Shown here: positions 1 through 37,436 of the stretch, piece by piece
Numbering within the stretch: position 1 is the first letter of the stretch
How the letters are laid out: every line of letters starts with the position of its first letter
Virus record (IMG/VR): IMGVR_UViG_3300020045_005078
Span: 1 to 37,436 of that record
DNA: 37,436 bases
Source of the DNA: a virus
Taxonomy: Duplodnaviria > Caudoviricetes
Direction: 5' to 3' (one strand)
Program-made: the position numbers and the translations under genes
Notes under the pieces: model-generated
Seen by the model: the letters and a program-made list of their open reading frames with translations, nothing else
What the model was told of the DNA's origin: nothing
Databases searched by the model: none

Positions 1-721
1 GGTAAACAACGCCATCCAGATGCATCATGATCGCATTCGGTTCTTTGGAGTGATTGGTATAGCGCCCCGCTGGCGTCCGCTTGCCACCAATCAAAGTGGG
101 CGCGATAACTTCTTGCGGGCCAAAGTTGCCGGTAGCAAAAAGCCCCTTGCCCTCGATCTGCGAGGGCGCAATCATCACCTTATATTCGCCAAACGGGAAA
201 GGCACCTGATCCTTTTCGTTCTCCGACATAGCGCGGACTTCATCAGGGCTAAAGCCAAACTGCTCAATAGCCGCCAAAAAGTCTTCCAAATCTGCTGTAT
301 GATCTTCCGTCAAAAGCGGCTGCGATTTGAACGTGGGGCTAGGCTCGAACAGTTCGCGCTCTAGCGTGGCCACATCTGTTTCGGTGGTGGCGTAGATGTT
401 CTGCCAAATCATATCTTCCAGAACATAGCCAAACTTTCGCCCAGCCGGTGCCACAAAGCAAGCGGGGGCGTCTAAGCGCTCTTGCCTGCCATCCTCGGCA
501 AACATCATCACAGCGCCCTTAATCATGCTATTAAGATGCGGGCCTTTGTGCGCATGGCTGATAAGGTAAGCGCCAGCCTTGACCGACAATTCGCGGATGT
601 AAATACCCGGCCCGAACCGATGCGTAACCTCGGCTTCCACCTGATCGACAGCCAGCATCGCGCCCTCTAGGCGTTCAATATCGGCGGGGGTGAATGTCTT
701 GGGAAGGGTTACAGCGCGCAT
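1..721 (-). CDS. Cupin-like domain fused to SET domain (putative protein lysine methyltransferase); 3' end truncated by window edge
   Basis: Hand translation from ATG at 721 (GAGG upstream) is open for 240 codons to the edge. N-terminal THRFGPGIYIREL..HAHKGPH is cupin-like. C-terminal SQIEGKGLFAT (G191-K-G193) and GRYTNHSKEPNA (N223-H-S) match SET motifs. Not in the ORF track. Confidence 0.85.
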   Translation of the reverse strand, partial: MRAVTLPKTFTPADIERLEGAMLAVDQVEAEVTHRFGPGIYIRELSVKAGAYLISHAHKGPHLNSMIKGAVMMFAEDGRQERLDAPACFVAPAGRKFGYVLEDMIWQNIYATTETDVATLERELFEPSPTFKSQPLLTEDHTADLEDFLAAIEQFGFSPDEVRAMSENEKDQVPFPFGEYKVMIAPSQIEGKGLFATGNFGPQEVIAPTLIGGKRTPAGRYTNHSKEPNAIMMHLDGVVY

Positions 722-775
722 TCCATGCCTCTTGGCTGAAATGGGCTACCGGCGGCCCTATTGCGCGGTGGTGAC

Positions 776-804
776 ACACTATACTAAACGCGCAATAGGT
801 GCAA
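776..804 (-). promoter_or_regulatory. Sigma70-like promoter upstream of the cupin-SET gene
   Basis: TTGCAC-N17-TAGTGT in the intergenic gap. Confidence 0.55.
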
Positions 805-817
805 GTGTTGCGGTCGC

Positions 818-1153
818 CTAGCTAATCACCCGCCCCGATGCCCGAATATTAATCGCGGTGGCCGTGCCTGCGATAGTGCTGATAAAGCCACCAACAGCAA
901 GAACTTGGCCGATCAATTCGGGGAACGTGTAGGTCTCGCCCGCTTGTAGGGTTTTGGTTTTGACAATCAGATTGTCATTGCCAGCCGCCCCGCCGCTAGT
1001 CACGAGGTTAACCGACAGGGTTGCAGCCGTGCCAGAATAATTGGTGGCCGTGAACTTGTCGATGATCGTAACGACATTGGTGGATGTGTATTGCGTGGTC
1101 TGCGAGTTTTCCGCAATCTTGGCGGCGATAAGAACCGTGTTGGTCGTGGCCAT
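818..1153 (-). CDS. Small virion-associated protein (111 aa)
   Basis: MATTNTVLIAAK start with AAGGA upstream; Thr/Ala-rich, beta-strand-like; lies in the tail module after the needle gene. Confidence 0.7.
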   Translation of the reverse strand: MATTNTVLIAAKIAENSQTTQYTSTNVVTIIDKFTATNYSGTAATLSVNLVTSGGAAGNDNLIVKTKTLQAGETYTFPELIGQVLAVGGFISTIAGTATAINIRASGRVIS

Positions 1154-1155
1154 GA

Positions 1156-1914
1156 TTAGTTTCCTTTGCTGATCTGAGTAATAACACAATTCGCGCTCGC
1201 GCCAGATGGGGCAAACGCGCTAGACGCATCAGGGGCAAGCTCTATGCCAGTGTTATTAACGGCCCACATGACTTCCACATACCCGTTCGCAGCCAATTCA
1301 ACTAAATGCTGCCCGCCAATAGAATGTTCTGTGCCATTACCGGAAATCATAAAATGCTGATTAGAACAAGGTACATCAACCCCATTAACTCTGATCCATG
1401 TCCATGCGCTATGCGTTCCACCAGTTGTTTCATGAAAGTGAATGGAATAACTAAACGAAAATAACCCAGAACGATCAACGGTCACTTGGCTATTCGATAC
1501 AATCGAAACGCCAATTGCTAGATAGGTTGCATTGAATGTCGCTGCGTAGGCCGTACTCGTTGCGCCTGCCGTCTGTGTTGCATCGCTATAGAATGAACCA
1601 TAGCGCGCAAGGTCTAGCGGAGGCGATGCCACAGGAGCGCCCTCTAAAGCACTCAGACGGCCTTCAATCGCGCTCAAATCAGGCGCAACAGGCAAGCGCG
1701 AGAACAAGTCCCGCAACTCAGCTATCACGGCCTCATTCATGGTGGATTGCGCAAGAGAACTGCCAATCGCGCTATCTATGTCGTTCACCAAGCCAGAATT
1801 GAGGTTTTCCTCAACCAGCAAGATTAGCCGCTCGAACTGCTTGATTTCCTCATGGCTTTTGAGAAATGATGCAAGCTGGTCGCGGGTGAGTTTCAGTTTA
1901 TTGGCCATTACCAA
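1156..1914 (-). CDS. Tail needle-like protein (P22 gp26 position) with C-terminal C1q/BclA-like knob
   Basis: Follows gp10; helical N-terminal half, then YGSFY..ATFN..VTVDRSGLFSFSYSIHF jelly-roll pattern. Confidence 0.6.
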   Translation of the reverse strand: MVMANKLKLTRDQLASFLKSHEEIKQFERLILLVEENLNSGLVNDIDSAIGSSLAQSTMNEAVIAELRDLFSRLPVAPDLSAIEGRLSALEGAPVASPPLDLARYGSFYSDATQTAGATSTAYAATFNATYLAIGVSIVSNSQVTVDRSGLFSFSYSIHFHETTGGTHSAWTWIRVNGVDVPCSNQHFMISGNGTEHSIGGQHLVELAANGYVEVMWAVNNTGIELAPDASSAFAPSGASANCVITQISKGN

Positions 1915-14813: not shown

Positions 14814-14898
14814 AATAATTTCCCTTATGTTGTTTTGACGTTGACAGCGTAACGCAATTTGGATTAGGTTGCAAGCATTGGCAACGGAGAATTTGCAC
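14814..14898. promoter_or_regulatory. Divergent overlapping promoter region
   Basis: Plus strand TTGACA (14841)..TAGGTT; minus strand TTGCAA-N17-TACGCT; GCGTAACGC dyad. Confidence 0.55.
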
Positions 14899-15603
14899 AT
14901 GACCGAAACACCAAAATCATTTTCCAATGCGTTTTCCGCTTTGGTGGCGGCGCAAGAAATTATGGAGCCGCTCTATAAGGGTGCGATTAATCCGGCATTC
15001 AAAGGCGAGGGGAAGCCCAAGGGAACTTCATACGCTGATTTTGCGGATGTTTGCGCGACTGTTCGTGAGCCTTTTGCGCAATGCCAATTGGCGCATTATT
15101 CCCACATGATCAGGCATGAGGCTGGTATGGATTGGCGCACTGTTGTCGTTCATGGCCCATCGGGAACGGAAATCCATTGCGATGTCCCGCTAATCGTGGA
15201 TCGCAATAATATGCAGGGCTTCAAATCGGCAGTAACCTACGCCAAGCGGATTGGCCTTGAAAGCCTTGCTGGCCTTGCGCCAGAGGATGACGATGGCAAC
15301 GCAGCCGCTAGCGCGCCACCAGCAAAGCAAGGGGCCACCAAGCAAGAGCCTGCCGCTATGCCCGATGCACAATGGGCTAAGCTAGTGCAACTCGTGGAAG
15401 CCACCGATTCTGACACTAACGCCATGTGCAAGCATTACGGCATCCGCAATTTGCGCGAATTGAGCGCTGATGGCTATGGTAAGGCCGTGGAAGCGCTGGA
15501 AAAGAAGCTGGCCAAAATGGCGAAGGAAGAGACCGCGCAAAAGGCCAATGGCTTTGGCGATGTGTTGGGCGATGAAATTCCAGAGTTTGGGGGTGCAGCA
15601 TGA
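14899..15603 (+). CDS. ERF-family ssDNA annealing protein
   Basis: NPAFK..YAD, QGFKSAVTYAKR, APEDDDGNAA; GGAG SD. Confidence 0.88.
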   Translation: MTETPKSFSNAFSALVAAQEIMEPLYKGAINPAFKGEGKPKGTSYADFADVCATVREPFAQCQLAHYSHMIRHEAGMDWRTVVVHGPSGTEIHCDVPLIVDRNNMQGFKSAVTYAKRIGLESLAGLAPEDDDGNAAASAPPAKQGATKQEPAAMPDAQWAKLVQLVEATDSDTNAMCKHYGIRNLRELSADGYGKAVEALEKKLAKMAKEETAQKANGFGDVLGDEIPEFGGAA

Positions 15604-16283
15604 CAGAAACTGTCACCCTTGGGCATAACAATCCCCCCGCCGATGTGACATTTAGCCTTCACGTCGACGACCTATTCACCACCCTTTCCAATACGCTGGC
15701 AGGGGGAGAAGTTATCACCGATGAACAAGAGGCGGCTATCGACGCAATCCTTGATGACTTCCGCAAGGCTAAGGGTGACAGCGACAAATTGCGCGCAGAC
15801 GAGAAAAAGCCATTTGATGATGCATCCAAAGCGGTGCAAGCCAAATGGAAGCCGATCATGGATAAGGCGGATCGAGGCGCAGCAGCCTGCAAGGAAGTGT
15901 TGACGCCCTATCGCACGGCTAAACAGCGCGCAGTTGAGGAAGCCGCCCGCATTGCCCGAGAGGAAGCCGCTGCGAAGGCTAAGGCGGCACAGGACGCCTT
16001 GCGCGCAGCCGATGACCTCGAAGCCAAGTTTGCGGCTGAGGAAGCCCTTAAACAGGCTGAGAAGCAATCCAAGGCCGCAAGCAAGATCGAACGCGCTCCC
16101 ACGGGGCTTAGGACTTACTGGACAGCCGAGGTAACGGATCGCAAGGCAGCGCTCCTGCATTACATTGCGCGCAATCCAGAAGCGTTTGCGGCTCTTATCC
16201 AGAACCTTGCCGATCAGGATGCGCGAGGCACCCGCCCACCTGTCCCCGGCGTTACATTTACTGAAAATAAGGAGGCTCGGTAA
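15600..16283 (+). CDS. Coiled-coil protein of the recombination module
   Basis: GHNNPP start, EKKPF, GLRTYW, PVPGV; coupled to ERF. Confidence 0.75.
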   Translation: MTETVTLGHNNPPADVTFSLHVDDLFTTLSNTLAGGEVITDEQEAAIDAILDDFRKAKGDSDKLRADEKKPFDDASKAVQAKWKPIMDKADRGAAACKEVLTPYRTAKQRAVEEAARIAREEAAAKAKAAQDALRAADDLEAKFAAEEALKQAEKQSKAASKIERAPTGLRTYWTAEVTDRKAALLHYIARNPEAFAALIQNLADQDARGTRPPVPGVTFTENKEAR

Positions 16284-16630
16284 TGCTTAATCAATTAGCC
16301 AATCAGTGCCACGAGGCGAACATGAAGTGGTGGCGGGATATTGAAACTGGAGAACTTATTGACCGAAACAAGGGCGAATTGCTTTGCCTTATTCATTCGG
16401 AAATTTCCGAAGCTATGGAAGGTGAGCGAAAAAACTTAATGGATGACAAGTTGCCACATCGCCGCATGGCAGAGGTTGAGCTTGTCGATGCTCTTATCCG
16501 TATTTTTGATTATGCCGCTGCATTTGGTTATGACTTGCAAGGCGCATTTGAAGAAAAAATGGCTTACAATGCGAGCCGTTACGATCATAGTAATGAGGCC
16601 CGCAAGGCCGTTAATGGAAAGAAATTCTAA
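16283..16630 (+). CDS. MazG-like nucleotide pyrophosphohydrolase
   Basis: LIHSEISEAMEG..EVELVDALIRIFD..EKMAYN. Confidence 0.85.
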   Translation: MLNQLANQCHEANMKWWRDIETGELIDRNKGELLCLIHSEISEAMEGERKNLMDDKLPHRRMAEVELVDALIRIFDYAAAFGYDLQGAFEEKMAYNASRYDHSNEARKAVNGKKF

Positions 16631-26013: not shown

Positions 26014-26131
26014 GAAGCTGATTTTCGTTTTACACTACATATCTTGCCACGTTTTTTGGAAGGATCACGGCGTTACTGAGGTCGGGAAACAATGGATCTG
26101 CAAAACTTGCGGGAAGGATGTTACGCCATGA
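26006..26131 (+). CDS. Small zinc-finger-like protein (41 aa)
   Basis: Hand translation MTEKLIF..CH..H..CKTCG; AGGAG SD. Confidence 0.6.
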   Translation: MTEKLIFVLHYISCHVFWKDHGVTEVGKQWICKTCGKDVTP

Positions 26132-26814
26132 CTGATATGCCGAGTGAGTTGAAGCCTTGCCCTAACCCTTGGTGCTGGCGGCCTGACAATTTGCGGGTTT
26201 CGGTTAACTGTAATCGTTGGCGTGTCTGGTGCCCATGCAATCTATGCGGCCCCGAAAAGCCGTCTCATGCCGAAGCCATCGCCGCATGGAACACCCGCAC
26301 AGCCCTCACCGACCACCAGAGCGCTGGGGAGCCGGTGGGCGAAGTGCGAACAGAACACCAGAAGTGGGTGATTATCGCCAAAGCCGCTGGGGCTAACGGC
26401 GTGCGGTATCGCACAAATCGCGGGATGATGGCGTTTCTCGGTGAGGTGAACGCCGCCACCCTGCAAAAGCTGGCCGAAGTGGAGGGGGAGAGAAAAGCAA
26501 CAGACGCCCTTTGCGAGGATATGGCCAACAAAGCAATCCAATGGGGACTTGAACGTGACGCCCTCACCGCCAAGCTGGCCGAGGGACGCGAGGCCCGTCT
26601 TATCAGTGAAACCTGTGCCGTGAAGACGCAAGAAATGCTCATGGAAATTTTGGACGCAGAAAAAGCCGAACTGGCCAAGCTGACGGATATGATGGTTAGG
26701 TATCTCAAACCGGAGACGTATGTTGATGTTAATGGCAAGGCATGGCCAACTAAGATCGCTGGCATAGCCTTTATTAACGATGTGATTTACACGTTAGACC
26801 CACCAAAGCCTTGA
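26128..26814 (+). CDS. Lar (restriction alleviation)-like zinc domain fused to coiled coil
   Basis: ELKPCPNPWC..CPCNLCGP..EAIAAWNTR. Confidence 0.7.
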   Translation: MTDMPSELKPCPNPWCWRPDNLRVSVNCNRWRVWCPCNLCGPEKPSHAEAIAAWNTRTALTDHQSAGEPVGEVRTEHQKWVIIAKAAGANGVRYRTNRGMMAFLGEVNAATLQKLAEVEGERKATDALCEDMANKAIQWGLERDALTAKLAEGREARLISETCAVKTQEMLMEILDAEKAELAKLTDMMVRYLKPETYVDVNGKAWPTKIAGIAFINDVIYTLDPPKP

Positions 26815-33234: not shown

Positions 33235-35940
33235 TTAATCCAAAAGCCGCTTAACTTCTTTCCGCAATTCGCGGTTTTTTGCAAATTTGAATACTTCTTT
33301 CAAGACAATAGACTTGCCGCCTGTTGCCGCGCCACCAATCAAATCAAACATATTGCCAAGGGCAGCGCTAGTGCCAGATGAATTGACAGAACCAACCGGA
33401 GCCGTTGCAGCATCATTGACTACCTCGCTCATGGTGCGCAATAGCTTGGCGGTATTAAAGTCGAAAACATAATCCAGCTTGCCAGACTTATCCAACTGCT
33501 CAATTGCTTTTTGCAGACCAGCGGGCGAAACCACAAGTTTCCCGCTTTCATCGCTTTGGCGAGTAAGGGCCTTGTCGCGGATGTTCTCAATAGTCGCGCC
33601 CTGCAATTCCTGCCAAGCGCGTTGGCCGCGAGTGCTGGCCTGATCCAAAACGCCCTTAAGCGCCTTAATGTCCGCAAGCGATGTTGCAGGGGAATAGATC
33701 GCCTTTTCAGCTACCTTTTCCAAAGCCACAGCGCGGTCAACGGTGCCGGGCTTTGTGCCGATCAGGCTTTTGACCAGAGCTGTATTCTCGAACGTGTCGG
33801 CATACTTCATGCGGGCAGCGCGAGCTTGCTGGTAAAGGTCGCCGCCCTTGCCTTCCGTGGCACTATCAATCAGGCCCTTTAGATCGCGCCCAAAAGTTTC
33901 ATCAGGCGTTCCGGGCTTGGCCACCTTGTTAATCAGCTTGCGGATATTCTCCATCGCATTGATGGGGATTTGGCCGGTGCCATCAGGATCATTCTTGCGA
34001 AGCTGGTTTGCCACCGCGTCAAGGACGGGTGCCAGCTTTTCGCGGGTGGTTACGTCCTGATCCTCAATAAACGCTTTCACATTGCCATAGGGCACAGGCT
34101 CAGACGTTTCACCGGCCTTTTCGGCGCGCTTGTAAAGGATGCGGGTGCGGGTTTTCTGGACGTTAGCCAGCTTTCGCAAAGCTTCATCAACTACAGCGCC
34201 CTTGCCAAGCAAGTCGCCCTCAATTTCTGAGCCAGTGCTATCGATAAACCGGTCAAAGTTCTGCCGGAAAGCCTCTTGCTGCTGCGCAAGGCGTTCACGG
34301 ATAGGCCCACCTACCTCGTTATTCTTGGCAAGTTCGCGGGCTTTCTGCTGATCTGCGAAAAGGCGCGTCCGCTGGAACTTAGCCAATTCCACAGGCACAG
34401 GCAACTCAGCCGCCCGCGTTGCGCGGATGGTCTCAATATTCGTTCCCGATGCGCCGCCATCGTTAAAGCGAGTGCGGGTAGGAATAAATGTGTCATCAAC
34501 CGCGCCAAGATCAGGAGCGCCGCCGCTGGGGGTTACTCCGCCAGAACCACCGCCCGATGGCATGTCAGGCCCACCAGAAGGTGGAATGCCACCGCTAGGC
34601 GGCACATCCATGCCAAGCATATTCTTGGCGGTAGGCAGCAGCTTCCTAGCGCCAGCGCCCAAAGCCTGCCCACCTACCGAGCCTAGAGCGCTTGTCAAAA
34701 CGCTTTCCGTTAGGTTATTGCCGGTGTTAATGGCGGTTAATCCACCGGCTGCAACGTCCTGCGCAACCTCGCGCCCTACAGTGCCAGCAATGCCGCCACC
34801 CATAAGGCTAGGAGCAATCTTGCCAGCAACAGCCGCGCCAGCTTTGCCAACGCCAGCCGCGCCAATGCCACCGCCGATCACCTCGCCAATTGCACCAGCG
34901 TTGGGATTAAGCGCCTCTAGGCCCTTAACCTGATCGCCAGCAGCCAATGACAGCGCGCCAAGGCCAGCGGCGTTTACAGCGCCAGTTACGGCAGTCCCCA
35001 CAGGCGTCATAAGCGCTTGGCCGACAGCCTGCGATATAGGATTGCGGACGCCGGTCTGCGAAGGCACGAAGTTTACCTGTCGCCCCTTGGCGCGCGCATC
35101 TACAGCGGCTTTGAACTTGGCAACATCATCAGGCCCCACCATCCCGCCAGCCTCTTGCGCTGCGCGAGTAAGGTCTTCGACAGTACCGCCCTTCGCGAAC
35201 ACATCACTTACCGCCGCAGCAATGGCTTTATCCGTGTCGGTGGAATAGCGCTCACCGCCAGAGATTTGCATTTGCTGCGCATCGGCACCTTGCGGGAACA
35301 AGGTTTTCCATGTCTTTTCGATATTGGCGACATATGGGGAATCCACGCGCGAGCCAACAACTAGCTTGGGATCAACCCCATAGCTTTGAGCCATACCCTC
35401 ATAATCGCCGCGCACCCGATCATATGACTGGCGGTAACTATCGGATAGATTTTTCATTTCCTGCAAAACGCGGTTGCGAACTTCGGGCCGGATTAGGCCA
35501 GCTTCATCAACGCCAAATTCCTTTTGGGCCTTTGCCACCAGCGACCCAAGGCGGCTATCACCCGCAGCAACAGTGTTAAATTCTTGCTCACGAACAACAG
35601 AGCCGGGATCAAGCATTTTGGCATAGGCGGTGATTAGCGCCTGATCGCCCGTAGGCGTAGGCTTAGCGCCAAGCGCAGAATTGAACTGGCGCATAACCAC
35701 TTCATAATTCTTGGCCTCTTCAGACTTGCGAAATTCATCACGCAGGTTTTTTGCGTTATCAAACTGCTCAGAGCGCCCTTGCCGCGCTTCGCTGGAAAGG
35801 CTGATATCCTGCGATACGCCTGCGCGCTCTTCTGCCGCAGCTTTCATGGGATCGCGGATAACCACTCCCTGCGAGGGCTTTGCGGCTTGGGTCGGTGCGC
35901 CGTATTCTTCCCAAGGGTTCTGTGCCATATTAACCGCCAA
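33235..35940 (-). CDS. DNA ejection protein, P22 gp16 position
   Basis: 901 aa helical; KMLDPGSVVRE; G/A-rich hydrophobic middle; third of the ejection trio. Confidence 0.7.
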   Translation of the reverse strand: MAVNMAQNPWEEYGAPTQAAKPSQGVVIRDPMKAAAEERAGVSQDISLSSEARQGRSEQFDNAKNLRDEFRKSEEAKNYEVVMRQFNSALGAKPTPTGDQALITAYAKMLDPGSVVREQEFNTVAAGDSRLGSLVAKAQKEFGVDEAGLIRPEVRNRVLQEMKNLSDSYRQSYDRVRGDYEGMAQSYGVDPKLVVGSRVDSPYVANIEKTWKTLFPQGADAQQMQISGGERYSTDTDKAIAAAVSDVFAKGGTVEDLTRAAQEAGGMVGPDDVAKFKAAVDARAKGRQVNFVPSQTGVRNPISQAVGQALMTPVGTAVTGAVNAAGLGALSLAAGDQVKGLEALNPNAGAIGEVIGGGIGAAGVGKAGAAVAGKIAPSLMGGGIAGTVGREVAQDVAAGGLTAINTGNNLTESVLTSALGSVGGQALGAGARKLLPTAKNMLGMDVPPSGGIPPSGGPDMPSGGGSGGVTPSGGAPDLGAVDDTFIPTRTRFNDGGASGTNIETIRATRAAELPVPVELAKFQRTRLFADQQKARELAKNNEVGGPIRERLAQQQEAFRQNFDRFIDSTGSEIEGDLLGKGAVVDEALRKLANVQKTRTRILYKRAEKAGETSEPVPYGNVKAFIEDQDVTTREKLAPVLDAVANQLRKNDPDGTGQIPINAMENIRKLINKVAKPGTPDETFGRDLKGLIDSATEGKGGDLYQQARAARMKYADTFENTALVKSLIGTKPGTVDRAVALEKVAEKAIYSPATSLADIKALKGVLDQASTRGQRAWQELQGATIENIRDKALTRQSDESGKLVVSPAGLQKAIEQLDKSGKLDYVFDFNTAKLLRTMSEVVNDAATAPVGSVNSSGTSAALGNMFDLIGGAATGGKSIVLKEVFKFAKNRELRKEVKRLLD

Positions 35941-36892
35941 TCACTTTGATGTTATTCCGCTGCATCCACGCATCAGTTTGAGCCTTGCCTTTAGCCTGCA
36001 CAACAGCGTCATATTGTGCGCGGGTCAGTTCCGTAGGCATCCCATTATCGCCGACTTGCGGAGCGGGGGTGTTTTGCATTTTATCAGCCTTCGCCCAATT
36101 GTCCTTATTGGCTGGGTCGCCTCCGGTGAACACATAGCCATTGCGCACCTCACCGATGCGGGGAAGTGGCTTAGGAGTAGCTGTAGCGCCTTGCTGCCCA
36201 CCACCATAACGGGTGTAATAGTCAGACTGGCGACCAACAAAGCGCCCACCATCCGGCGTATCCATCTCGACAATCGGGTCGGTTTTCAGCGCCACATATT
36301 CCGCAGCCTTGGCCTTACCCTCTGGGCCTTCAGGATCAATGCCAGCCGCCGCCAAATCTTTTTGGAAGCTAGTCATGCCCGCGCCGCCAAACACCGTCTC
36401 ATAAAGCTTAGGATTGGCCGCAGCTAGTTTCAAAGCAAACAGTTGCCGCGCCGCCTTGGGATCTGTCTTGGCTGTCTGCACGATAGCCTTGGCTGCTTCC
36501 GCCTGCTTTTCCATACCCCGCGTATTGCCGAACGATGTAGCGCGTTGATCCATCAGGGAAATCGCATCATCATTCTTGCCATTCGACAAGAGCGATAACG
36601 TCCGCGCAGTAAAGTCTAGATCATCAGCCGCGGCCGCTTCATCTAGTGGCTTGCGCGCCGCTTCAAACTGCTCCTTATAGGCCGGATAGGCCATATAGAA
36701 GCGCGAGATATTTTCAGGCGTTGGATTGTCGTAAACCATTCGCATAGCCTGCTGCGCTTGCAATGCCTGTTGCTGCTTTAGCTGCGCCTCGCGCTGCGCC
36801 TGCTGTTGCGCGGCAATCTGCTGCCCGAACAAATAGGAGCGCTCAAAAGCCGCTTGGGGGCTGGCGATCATGTAGTTGTTAGGGTCTGCCAT
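35930..36892 (-). CDS. DNA ejection protein, P22 gp20 position
   Basis: Gln/Ala-rich helical; GYVFTGGDPANKDNW; follows the gp7-like gene. Confidence 0.7.
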   Translation of the reverse strand: MADPNNYMIASPQAAFERSYLFGQQIAAQQQAQREAQLKQQQALQAQQAMRMVYDNPTPENISRFYMAYPAYKEQFEAARKPLDEAAAADDLDFTARTLSLLSNGKNDDAISLMDQRATSFGNTRGMEKQAEAAKAIVQTAKTDPKAARQLFALKLAAANPKLYETVFGGAGMTSFQKDLAAAGIDPEGPEGKAKAAEYVALKTDPIVEMDTPDGGRFVGRQSDYYTRYGGGQQGATATPKPLPRIGEVRNGYVFTGGDPANKDNWAKADKMQNTPAPQVGDNGMPTELTRAQYDAVVQAKGKAQTDAWMQRNNIKVIGG

Positions 36893-37436
36893 TAGAACAA
36901 CTTCCCTAGTGCAGCCTGACCAGCCGTAGATGTTGCATATCCGGTAATGCTGCCAAGGGCATTGTTAATGGCGTTACCAGTCGCCAAAGCGCTGCCAGCC
37001 TGCGCTTGCCCCGCCTGCGTGTAAGCGTTGCTGATGTTGCTAGCGGCGGTCATACCTGCGTTGCCCACGCCTGCCGCTGCATTCTGCCCGATAGACGTAA
37101 GCCCGCTCAAATTGGAAAATTGCTGCTGAATTTGCTGGTTGAGCAATGCAGGCCGGAACTGCGCCAAAGCCCCCTGCGTATTGCCGCCACGCAAGCCACC
37201 AGTAGCGCTGGCGTTTTGCAAAATAGCATTTTCGCCTTGCGCAGCCAAAGCTTGAAACATAGGGCTTTGCTCAAATTGCGAAATGGCAGTCTGCTGAGCC
37301 TGTGCTCCAGTGACTGCATCCTGCCCGCCAGTGGTCGAGACTTGCCGCCCCTCGTTCTGGCCGTAGTTCTGGTAATGCCATTGCGCATAAGCCTCAGGCG
37401 TTCCGAATTGCTGCTGGATATTGGGGTCAGAACTAA
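36892..37436 (-). CDS. P22 gp7-like DNA ejection protein, 5' end truncated
   Basis: Frame stays open from 37260 to the right edge; NASATGGLRGGNTQ and G/A/Q-rich tail. Confidence 0.8.
   Translation of the reverse strand, partial: SSDPNIQQQFGTPEAYAQWHYQNYGQNEGRQVSTTGGQDAVTGAQAQQTAISQFEQSPMFQALAAQGENAILQNASATGGLRGGNTQGALAQFRPALLNQQIQQQFSNLSGLTSIGQNAAAGVGNAGMTAASNISNAYTQAGQAQAGSALATGNAINNALGSITGYATSTAGQAALGKLF

What the first reader, a model, noticed from the sequence alone, without database searches (positions are those of the whole stretch)
1..721. Cupin-SET fusion in the virion module: candidate phage protein-methylation system
Seen: a minus-strand ORF missed by the track because it runs off the edge. 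It has H34 and H56-x-H58-x3-H62 in a cupin-like strand pattern, an acidic linker, then SET motifs SQIEGKGLFAT and GRYTNHSKEPNA only about 30 aa apart (a minimal SET). Established: GxG and NHSxxPN form the SAM site of SET lysine methyltransferases, and HxH cupins bind metal (the fold also includes JmjC demethylases/hydroxylases). Inference: by synteny it occupies the P22 gp14 slot before the gp7/gp20/gp16 ejection genes, so it may methylate and perhaps hydroxylate or demethylate virion, ejected or host proteins. That would be a two-activity modification enzyme in a bacteriophage. Novelty was not checked against databases.
Basis: partly seen in the sequence, partly recalled or inferred. Interest (0 to 1): 0.88.

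Follow-up and report, generated by a model that had tools for sequence, protein, structure and literature searches.

The report
Phage methyltransferase tailored to ejection-protein tip
This short-tailed phage encodes a cupin domain fused to a minimal SET-type domain directly in front of its first DNA-ejection protein, and across related phages the SET half goes with a small third residue on that ejection protein, so it likely methylates the protein's tip, which would give a long-unexplained phage gene slot a testable job.

Summary
Observation confirmed. The ORF is cut only by the contig end; a 99%-identical 272-aa copy ends in GEEITVDY, passes Pfam SET and folds as RmlC-like cupin plus minimal SET (pLDDT 92). 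It is common (1,074 homologs; cultured phages P26218, PH1) and sits directly before the gp7/gp14-like ejection gene. The scan reported this family twice before on other DNA. New here: DNA-pattern scans that left residue 3 of the ejection protein free gave 252 distinct N-termini. Residue 3 is Ala/Gly in 99 of 103 with SET upstream, and Trp/Val/Phe/Met in 129 of 136 with the cupin alone. The same slot also holds dioxygenase+GNAT (M-V-A/M-T-T) and sulfotransferase-like+citrate-synthase-like (M-G-W) cassettes. Best reading (0.55): the fusion binds and methylates the ejection protein's N-terminus, likely the freed alpha-amine, during assembly. Against: few supported independent contrasts, and the codons adjoin the SET stop, so hitch-hiking is not excluded. 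The JmjC demethylase idea fails: no HxD/E, and the distal His is Lys. No activity was tested.

The parts
2..721 (-). cupin-SET fusion gene, residues 1-240 of 272; 3' end lost at the contig edge
   Evidence: PHROG 34170 E 1.5e-59
332..688 (-). cupin domain (residues 12-130): N-terminal helix plus RmlC-like barrel; family labelled PHA00672, PHROG 12032/24280
   Evidence: PHA00672 label from record notes
536..556 (-). cupin motif 1, H56-x-H58-x3-H62
   Evidence: sequence; conservation
434..436 (-). Lys96, in the place of the distal metal-binding His of classical cupins
   Evidence: alignment to 9bwf; 120 of 120
2..196 (-). minimal SET domain, residues 176-240 present here; continues to GEEITVDY263 in P0002
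143..163 (-). SET motif I, SQIEGKG
47..67 (-). SET motif GRYTNHS
36892..37434 (-). P22 gp7-like first ejection protein, 5' end lost at the contig edge; proposed substrate
   Evidence: Pfam P22_gp7 31.7 bits vs cutoff 28; 59% to L001 gp7 residues 87-278
35930..36892 (-). gp20-like ejection protein (by position and homology to L001)
33235..35940 (-). gp16-like ejection protein (by position and homology to L001)
722..817 (-). intergenic leader with an 11-bp inverted repeat, a motif at 749-768 shared with the closest relatives, and a predicted hairpin over the start codon
1908..3314 (-). P22 gp10-like head closure protein; marks the upstream virion module

Best explanation
The gene encodes a cupin domain fused to a minimal SET domain, directly before the first ejection gene of a P22-like short-tailed phage, and it likely methylates the N-terminus of that ejection protein during assembly. 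Steps. (1) Shown: fold, motifs, gene position, and the link between SET presence and Ala/Gly at residue 3 of the ejection protein. (2) Inferred: the host removes Met1 (established rule for a small second residue), exposing Ser2. (3) Inferred: the cupin binds this Ser/Thr/Ala-led hydrophobic N-terminus; whether it also catalyses something is open. (4) Inferred: the SET domain binds SAM and methylates the freed alpha-amine of Ser2; because its lysine channel is stripped down, the backbone must enter it, which would need a small next residue. (5) Inferred: the cap does the job that a bulky Trp/Phe/Val does in phages with the cupin alone, such as protecting the tip from trimming or helping loading into the head and membrane insertion. 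Other phages fill the slot with other transferase cassettes and other N-terminal codes.
For: Fold: AlphaFold2 mean pLDDT 91.9; MLL1 SET Z 10.8, rmsd 2.4, 85 aligned; cupins Z 8.7 and below; profile hit to KMT2A E 1.9e-9 and to PBCV-1 vSET E 1.9e-6; Pfam SET 23 bits vs cutoff 22.4. Motifs in 65 diverse SET halves: first motif-I Gly 65, His 65, terminal Tyr 65, Asn 64. Position: P26218 gp30 and PH1 gp49 directly precede 'DNA ejection' genes; the cupin alone fills the T7 gp13 slot in phiAp1; all 16 cupin-only phage records fetched precede an M-[ST]-x-hydrophobic N-terminus. Covariation: four pattern scans with residue 3 free, 436 loci, 252 distinct N-termini; 99 of 103 SET small, 129 of 136 cupin-only bulky. 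It recurs in a second ejection-protein family (PH1 MSG versus VPMS1 and Amaethon MSW) and in sister pairs (L230 vs L203 at 66% identity; L402 vs L500; L323 vs L319). Residue 3 changes identity at least 24 times within each class but crosses class only 5 times in each, although Ala-Val and Gly-Trp/Val are single-base steps. Other slot occupants carry other codes. SET domains with non-lysine substrates exist (BurB, PMC12542666).
Against: The first codons of the ejection gene adjoin or overlap the SET stop codon, and residues 4, 6 and 14 also lean by class, so cassette hitch-hiking explains part of the signal. Supported independent contrasts are few: 4 of 4 the same way on the ejection-protein tree (p 0.125); on the cupin tree 5 pairs gave on average 2.5 same, 0 opposite, 2.5 no difference. 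Exceptions: 4 of 103 SET loci have a bulky residue (the SET motifs of L196, L386, L452 and L585 look intact) and 7 of 136 cupin-only loci a small one. A split cupin+SET pair occurs in a satellite-like element with no ejection gene recognised among the listed ORFs (L109). The window's own gp7 N-terminus is missing. No enzyme activity or binding was tested.
Confidence: 0.55

Rival explanations
1. The SET domain is an active lysine methyltransferase for an internal lysine of the ejection protein (first Lys mostly at 20-28) or of another virion protein; the residue-3 link is hitch-hiking of a recombining cassette.
For: SAM-site motifs intact; 91 SET-linked N-termini have their first Lys at positions 20-28 in Ala/Ser-rich context; physical adjacency of the genes; cupin-only sisters L406 and L451 keep MSG.
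Against: The same lysines occur in cupin-only phages, and 36 SET-linked N-termini have no Lys in the first 45 residues. Residue 3 moves freely within each class but rarely across. The lysine-channel aromatics and SET-I groove are reduced.
Confidence: 0.2
2. The fusion is a non-catalytic chaperone: cupin and SET fold only bind the hydrophobic N-terminal helix of the ejection protein, keep it soluble and deliver it to the procapsid.
For: Cupin metal ligands vary; T7 gp14 is water-insoluble and membrane-inserting (PMC8954989); the residue-3 link would also follow from binding alone.
Against: SAM-binding Gly/Asn/His and the terminal Tyr are kept in 64-65 of 65 diverse SET halves; alternative slot occupants have GNAT, dioxygenase, sulfotransferase-like and citrate-synthase-like domains.
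Confidence: 0.13
3. The protein acts on a host protein or small molecule (counter-defence or metabolism, BurB-like) and sits in the late operon only for timing.
For: BurB shows a SET fold on free methionine and is a structural match at Z 7.8; split cupin+SET in a satellite-like element.
Against: Fixed position directly before the first ejection gene in P22-like, T7-like and other podoviruses; covariation with one residue of that protein.
Confidence: 0.09
4. One reading: a writer/eraser pair in which the cupin is a JmjC-like 2OG-Fe(II) hydroxylase or demethylase.
For: Double-stranded beta-helix fold and three or four His in this copy; an AspH-like dioxygenase can occupy the same slot in other phages.
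Against: No HxD/E; the distal His is Lys96; H56 and H58 are often replaced; the domain is an 85-residue monocupin.
Confidence: 0.03

Closest known systems
SET-domain methyltransferases (KMT2A/MLL1, PBCV-1 vSET A612L, SETD6/SMYD class)
   Same: SET fold, GxG, NHS and E-x-T-x-D-Y motifs; small size like vSET.
   Different: SET-I insert reduced to a hairpin, motif-II Tyr replaced by Ala/Gly, Val/Ile at the Phe/Tyr-switch place (residue roles recalled), a GCxGG insert in most members, fused cupin and helical subdomain, encoded by a bacteriophage whose host has no histones.
BurB (Burkholderia SET-domain methionine S-methyltransferase; PMC12542666, abstract and passages seen)
   Same: Bacterial-type SET fold acting on a non-lysine substrate; structural match Z 7.8, rmsd 2.9, 86 aligned.
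   Different: Stand-alone small-molecule enzyme in a biosynthetic pathway; no cupin, no virion context.
RmlC-like monocupins (TM1459, CelOCE 9bwf, DddK, KdgF, ppnP)
   Same: Barrel fold (Z 8-9); motif-1 HxHx3H as in TM1459; profile hit to 9bwf E 7e-4.
   Different: Motif-2 His replaced by Lys/Arg; variable motif-1 ligands; basic pocket residues (R43, R95, K96); nearest Atlas clusters are viral hypothetical proteins.
PHROG 34170 (unknown function), PHROG 12032 'short tail fiber', PHROG 24280 'tail fiber adhesin', CDD PHA00672
   Same: This protein is a member by sequence (E 3e-71, 7e-27, 2.5e-25).
   Different: The fibre/adhesin names do not fit a globular cupin; no function is attached to the fusion.
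T7 gp13 and P22 gp14 (slot genes before T7 gp14 and P22 gp7)
   Same: Same gene position directly before the first ejection protein (vs 21-24).
   Different: Unrelated sequence families (PF11090, DUF2824). Their GNAT-like fold is recalled, and my test was inconclusive. P22 gp7 has its first 20 residues clipped by host OpdA (PMC8402733) and lacks the hydrophobic N-terminus.

Membership tests
SET domain superfamily | SET fold | tested here: met
   MLL1 Z 10.8, rmsd 2.4, 85 aligned, model 176-271
SET domain superfamily | Motif I GxG, NHS motif and terminal E-x-x-x-D-Y | tested here: met
   terminal motif read from P0002, not from the window
SET domain superfamily | Pfam PF00856 gathering score | tested here: met
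   P0002 23.0 vs 22.4 bits; four homologs 25-31; P26218 gp30 is below cutoff at 16.2; the truncated window copy scored nothing
Canonical SET lysine methyltransferases | SET-I insert and motif-II Tyr that line the peptide groove and lysine channel (roles recalled) | tested here: not met
   alignment to KMT2A leaves only a short hairpin between the two matched stretches; residue 209 is Ala 104, Gly 11, Thr 4 of 120
Canonical SET lysine methyltransferases | SAM binding and methyl transfer to lysine | not testable with these tools
   needs an assay
RmlC-like cupins | Double-stranded beta-helix barrel | tested here: met
   ppnP Z 8.7, rmsd 2.1, 83 aligned; cupin-only relative Z 9.2, rmsd 1.8, 82 aligned
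Metal-binding cupins | Motif 1 H-x-H-x3-E/H/Q | tested here: met
   H56, H58, H62 in this copy; variable across the family
Metal-binding cupins | Motif 2 distal His | tested here: not met
   Lys96 aligns with the distal His position of 9bwf; Lys in 120 of 120, Lys/Arg in cupin-only forms
JmjC / 2OG-Fe(II) oxygenases | HxD/E...H iron triad | tested here: not met
   H-x-H/Q and no distal His
JmjC / 2OG-Fe(II) oxygenases | Extended JmjC fold | tested here: inconclusive
   structure searches list small cupins; an unlisted family is not excluded
Short tail fibre / adhesin (PHROG 12032, 24280 labels) | Elongated fibre architecture | tested here: not met
   single-chain models are globular cupins; oligomer state not tested
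T7 gp13 / P22 gp14 slot genes | Directly upstream of the first ejection gene | tested here: met
T7 gp13 / P22 gp14 slot genes | Sequence family PF11090 or DUF2824 | tested here: not met
   no such hit for P0002; the references hit them
T7 gp13 / P22 gp14 slot genes | GNAT fold of gp13 and gp14 (recalled) | tested here: inconclusive
   gp13 best PDB hit is a spermidine acetyltransferase at E 0.39; gp14 has no GNAT hit

The most novel reading that the evidence does not exclude
Short-tailed phages carry a swappable N-terminal capping cassette in front of their first ejection protein. Cupin, cupin-SET, dioxygenase+GNAT and sulfotransferase-like+citrate-synthase-like enzymes (and T7 gp13/P22 gp14) each write a different mark on the tip of the protein that first pierces the host membrane, and each reads its own two-residue code. 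The cupin-SET form is an alpha-N-methyltransferase built from a stripped SET fold. This would be the phage counterpart of N-terminal myristoylation of membrane-penetration proteins in non-enveloped animal viruses (analogy recalled).
Probability: 0.35. Interest if true: 0.9.

Novelty: new variant of a known kind. Interest (0 to 1): 0.74.

Why it matters
The gene before the first ejection protein (T7 gp13, P22 gp14) has no assigned biochemistry in the passages of the ejection-protein papers I read. This family names a substrate and a residue: SET presence tracks residue 3 of the ejection protein. That turns an open question into a peptide assay with cultured phages of environmental hosts (P26218, PH1, X14). 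It would add a SET enzyme acting on a protein N-terminus, correct the 'short tail fiber' label on a cupin family with 4,838 clusters at 50% identity, and suggest that podovirus ejection proteins are routinely modified after translation.

Tried and rejected
Closing the contig gap: no terminal overlap; three public runs held 5-10% of the words and gave no piece across the edge. Complex prediction of the fusion with the ejection-protein N-terminus: the queue was full and the job never ran, so binding is untested. No JmjC or classical 2OG oxygenase row among the listed structure matches; absence from a list excludes nothing. The search for shorter homologs found only 3 of 9 candidates. A viral scan with the Vibrio 234P9 cupin found nothing. 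NCBIfam had no family for P0002. Sigma-70 promoter and terminator scan of 600-1000: none. The upstream motif occurs in 6 of 318 loci, the closest relatives only, so it is not part of the system. GNAT identity of T7 gp13 and P22 gp14 could not be shown by sequence. Literature: searches listed no paper on this fusion or on modification of ejection-protein N-termini (123 returned 0); the library lacks most subscription papers and I read no supplements, so absence is not shown. The P26218 genome paper has no 'methyltransferase' or 'cupin' in its main text; the X14 paper gave no match to my terms. A word search of earlier scan findings for the slot/N-terminus idea returned nothing. Rows handled: one search dropped one masked locus (L108), counted the frameshifted L231 twice and included L109, so I quote as the main count; one search left out L109, L231 and masked rows.

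Full report
Observation. window 721..2 on the minus strand is a 240-codon ORF open at the contig edge, with H34, H56, H58, H62, SQIEGKGLFAT and GRYTNHSKEPNA as reported. The window is the whole contig. It is a P22-like short-tailed phage: terminase, portal, scaffold, coat, gp4- and gp10-like genes run toward the left edge, and the right edge begins inside a P22_gp7-like gene followed by two large genes. The relative L001 has cupin-SET, gp7-, gp20- and gp16-like genes in a row, each matching the window's, so the contig is a permuted genome with a small gap. P0002, 99% identical and 272 aa long, ends in GEEITVDY.

What the protein is. AlphaFold2 on 116 homologs gives mean pLDDT 91.9. Residues 176-271 match SET domains (MLL1 Z 10.8, rmsd 2.4, 85 aligned) and residues 27-113 match small RmlC-like cupins (Z up to 8.7). 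The profile finds KMT2A at E 1.9e-9 and PBCV-1 vSET at 1.9e-6, and P0002 passes Pfam SET narrowly. The SAM-site residues are kept in 64-65 of 65 diverse SET halves. The SET-I insert is reduced to a hairpin and the motif-II Tyr is Ala/Gly; by recalled SET structure these parts line the lysine channel. The cupin lacks the distal His (Lys96); H58 is Gln in 101 of 154 fused forms and H56 is Lys/Arg in 41 of 72 cupin-only forms. It is not a JmjC site.

Distribution. 1,074 homologs among 1,679 candidates; the cupin profile finds 4,838 clusters at 50% identity. In GenBank phages 66 records match and 8 cover at least 80% of the fusion, among them Rhodoferax phage P26218 and Pseudoalteromonas phage PH1, where the gene directly precedes a 'DNA ejection' gene. 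The cupin alone, labelled 'short tail fiber' or PHA00672, fills the T7 gp13 position in phiAp1. In all 16 cupin-only records I fetched, of 73 matching records, the next gene starts M-[ST]-x-hydrophobic; in BPP-1 and H4/4 that gene is a small protein before the head-tail adaptor.

The key test. Of 436 loci and 252 distinct N-termini, 103 had SET upstream, 136 the cupin alone, 6 something else and 7 too little upstream DNA. Residue 3 was Ala/Gly in 99 of 103 with SET and Trp/Val/Phe/Met in 129 of 136 without (Fisher p 7e-53, which ignores kinship). The metagenome scan alone gave 36 of 39 and 55 of 59. Residue 2 also differs: Ser in 101 of 103 with SET; Ser, Thr or Ala without.

Kinship and hitch-hiking. 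On a tree of 105 ejection proteins built without their first 22 residues, SET presence changes at least 13 times and residue class 14 times; 4 supported independent pairs all go the same way (p 0.125). On a tree of 134 cupins, 5 supported pairs give on average 2.5 same, 0 opposite and 2.5 no difference; two cupin-only sisters of SET forms keep Gly. The pattern recurs in a second ejection-protein family (PH1 versus VPMS1 and Amaethon). Because the codons adjoin the SET stop, a recombining cassette could carry them along, and residues 4, 6 and 14 also lean by class. Against pure linkage, residue 3 changes at least 24 times within each class and crosses class 5 times in each, although single-base steps join the classes. 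The coupling is strong but not proven to be functional.

Other occupants of the slot. Of the 6 'other' N-termini, one is a chance match without a recognised phage neighbour, one is a broken frame, two follow an AspH-like dioxygenase plus GNAT and two follow a sulfotransferase-like plus a citrate-synthase-like gene. Among 16 loci related to that GNAT, 14 have a gp7-like gene next by BLAST, and the N-termini read M-V-A in 8 and M-T-T in 5, with 3 unclear; the citrate-synthase type reads M-G-W. BPP-1 and MD-2021a have a GNAT-like gene beside the cupin. A review of peptide-modifying dioxygenases notes neighbourhoods of beta-hydroxylases, sulfotransferases, acetyltransferases and tail-collar genes (PMC2938197, passages seen) but not this slot in those passages.

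Mechanism. Shown: folds, motifs, position, covariation. Inferred: after removal of Met1 the cupin grips the N-terminus, and the SET domain methylates the freed alpha-amine, which requires a small next residue; the cap would stand in for the bulky residue of cupin-only phages. T7 gp14 is the first protein ejected and forms the outer-membrane pore (PMC8954989, passages). P22 gp7 is processed at its N-terminus and is loaded through its N-terminal part (PMC8402733, passages). BurB shows that a SET fold can methylate a non-lysine (PMC12542666, abstract and passages). I give this 0.55; internal-lysine methylation with hitch-hiking 0.2; binding only 0.13; a host or small-molecule target 0.09; a JmjC-like eraser 0.03. 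One case against a strict tie: a split cupin and SET pair lies in a satellite-like element of Paraburkholderia ferrariae with no ejection gene recognised among the listed ORFs.

Novelty. The family is in databases without a function (PHROG 34170; a UniRef 'SET domain-containing protein' name; one record named after vSET). Searches listed no study of it; coverage is limited and no supplements were read. I also saw PMC4657236 and PMC9011153 (term look-ups without relevant hits), PMC3558961 (one table row) and PMC9728967 (passages, not relevant). Two earlier scan reports describe the same fusion on other DNA; the lines shown do not mention the residue-3 code or the alternative cassettes. Verdict: a real, widespread, untested variant of the SET family with a specific predicted substrate. 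Interest 0.74.

Noticed in passing
L578, L587, L598-L613 (IMG/VR): AspH-like 2OG dioxygenase (PF05118) plus GNAT (PF00583) cassette directly before a gp7-like gene whose N-terminus reads M-V-A or M-T-T.
   Followed up: partly
L520:248-1296, L526:1352-2445: Sulfotransferase-like (PF13469) plus citrate-synthase C-terminal-like (PF00285) genes in the same slot, before a gp7-like protein starting M-G-W; a possible N-terminal Gly acylation system.
   Followed up: partly
L109:6665-8112 (Paraburkholderia ferrariae): Cupin and SET as two adjacent genes after a DnaB-like helicase gene (my reading of its motifs) in a satellite-like element; no ejection gene recognised nearby. L107 has the SET part alone in a similar setting.
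   Followed up: partly
window 722-817: Leader with an 11-bp perfect inverted repeat (RNA fold z -3.8), a motif at 749-768 shared with L001, L002 and L006, and a predicted hairpin covering the start codon.
   Followed up: partly
L171:2983-4313 (BPP-1), L182:1957-3330 (MD-2021a): GNAT-like gene and cupin gene side by side before a small protein with the same kind of N-terminus.
   Followed up: partly
L089:6370-7059 (P22 gp7), L090:5729-6319 (T7 gp14): Mature P22 gp7 begins Lys-Gly-Gly-Lys-Gly and T7 gp14 begins Met-Cys-Trp; both are plausible acylation sites for their slot genes (inference).
   Followed up: no
P0052: A 416-aa homolog with an extra N-terminal region in place of the start and the SET end intact; possibly a chimeric assembly.
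   Followed up: no
L200, L231: L200 has a degenerate SET (NH motif lost); L231 has a frameshifted cupin-SET gene.
   Followed up: partly
window 26092-26814 (+), 16283-16630 (+), 14869-16283 (+): Lar-like restriction alleviation protein, pyrophosphatase-family gene, Erf-like annealing protein and exonuclease; no integrase among the ORFs scanned.
   Followed up: no
window 1156-1914 (-), 818-1150 (-): Between gp10 and the cupin-SET gene lie a 252-aa gene with a weak BclA_C hit and a conserved 111-aa gene, where P22 has gp26.
   Followed up: no
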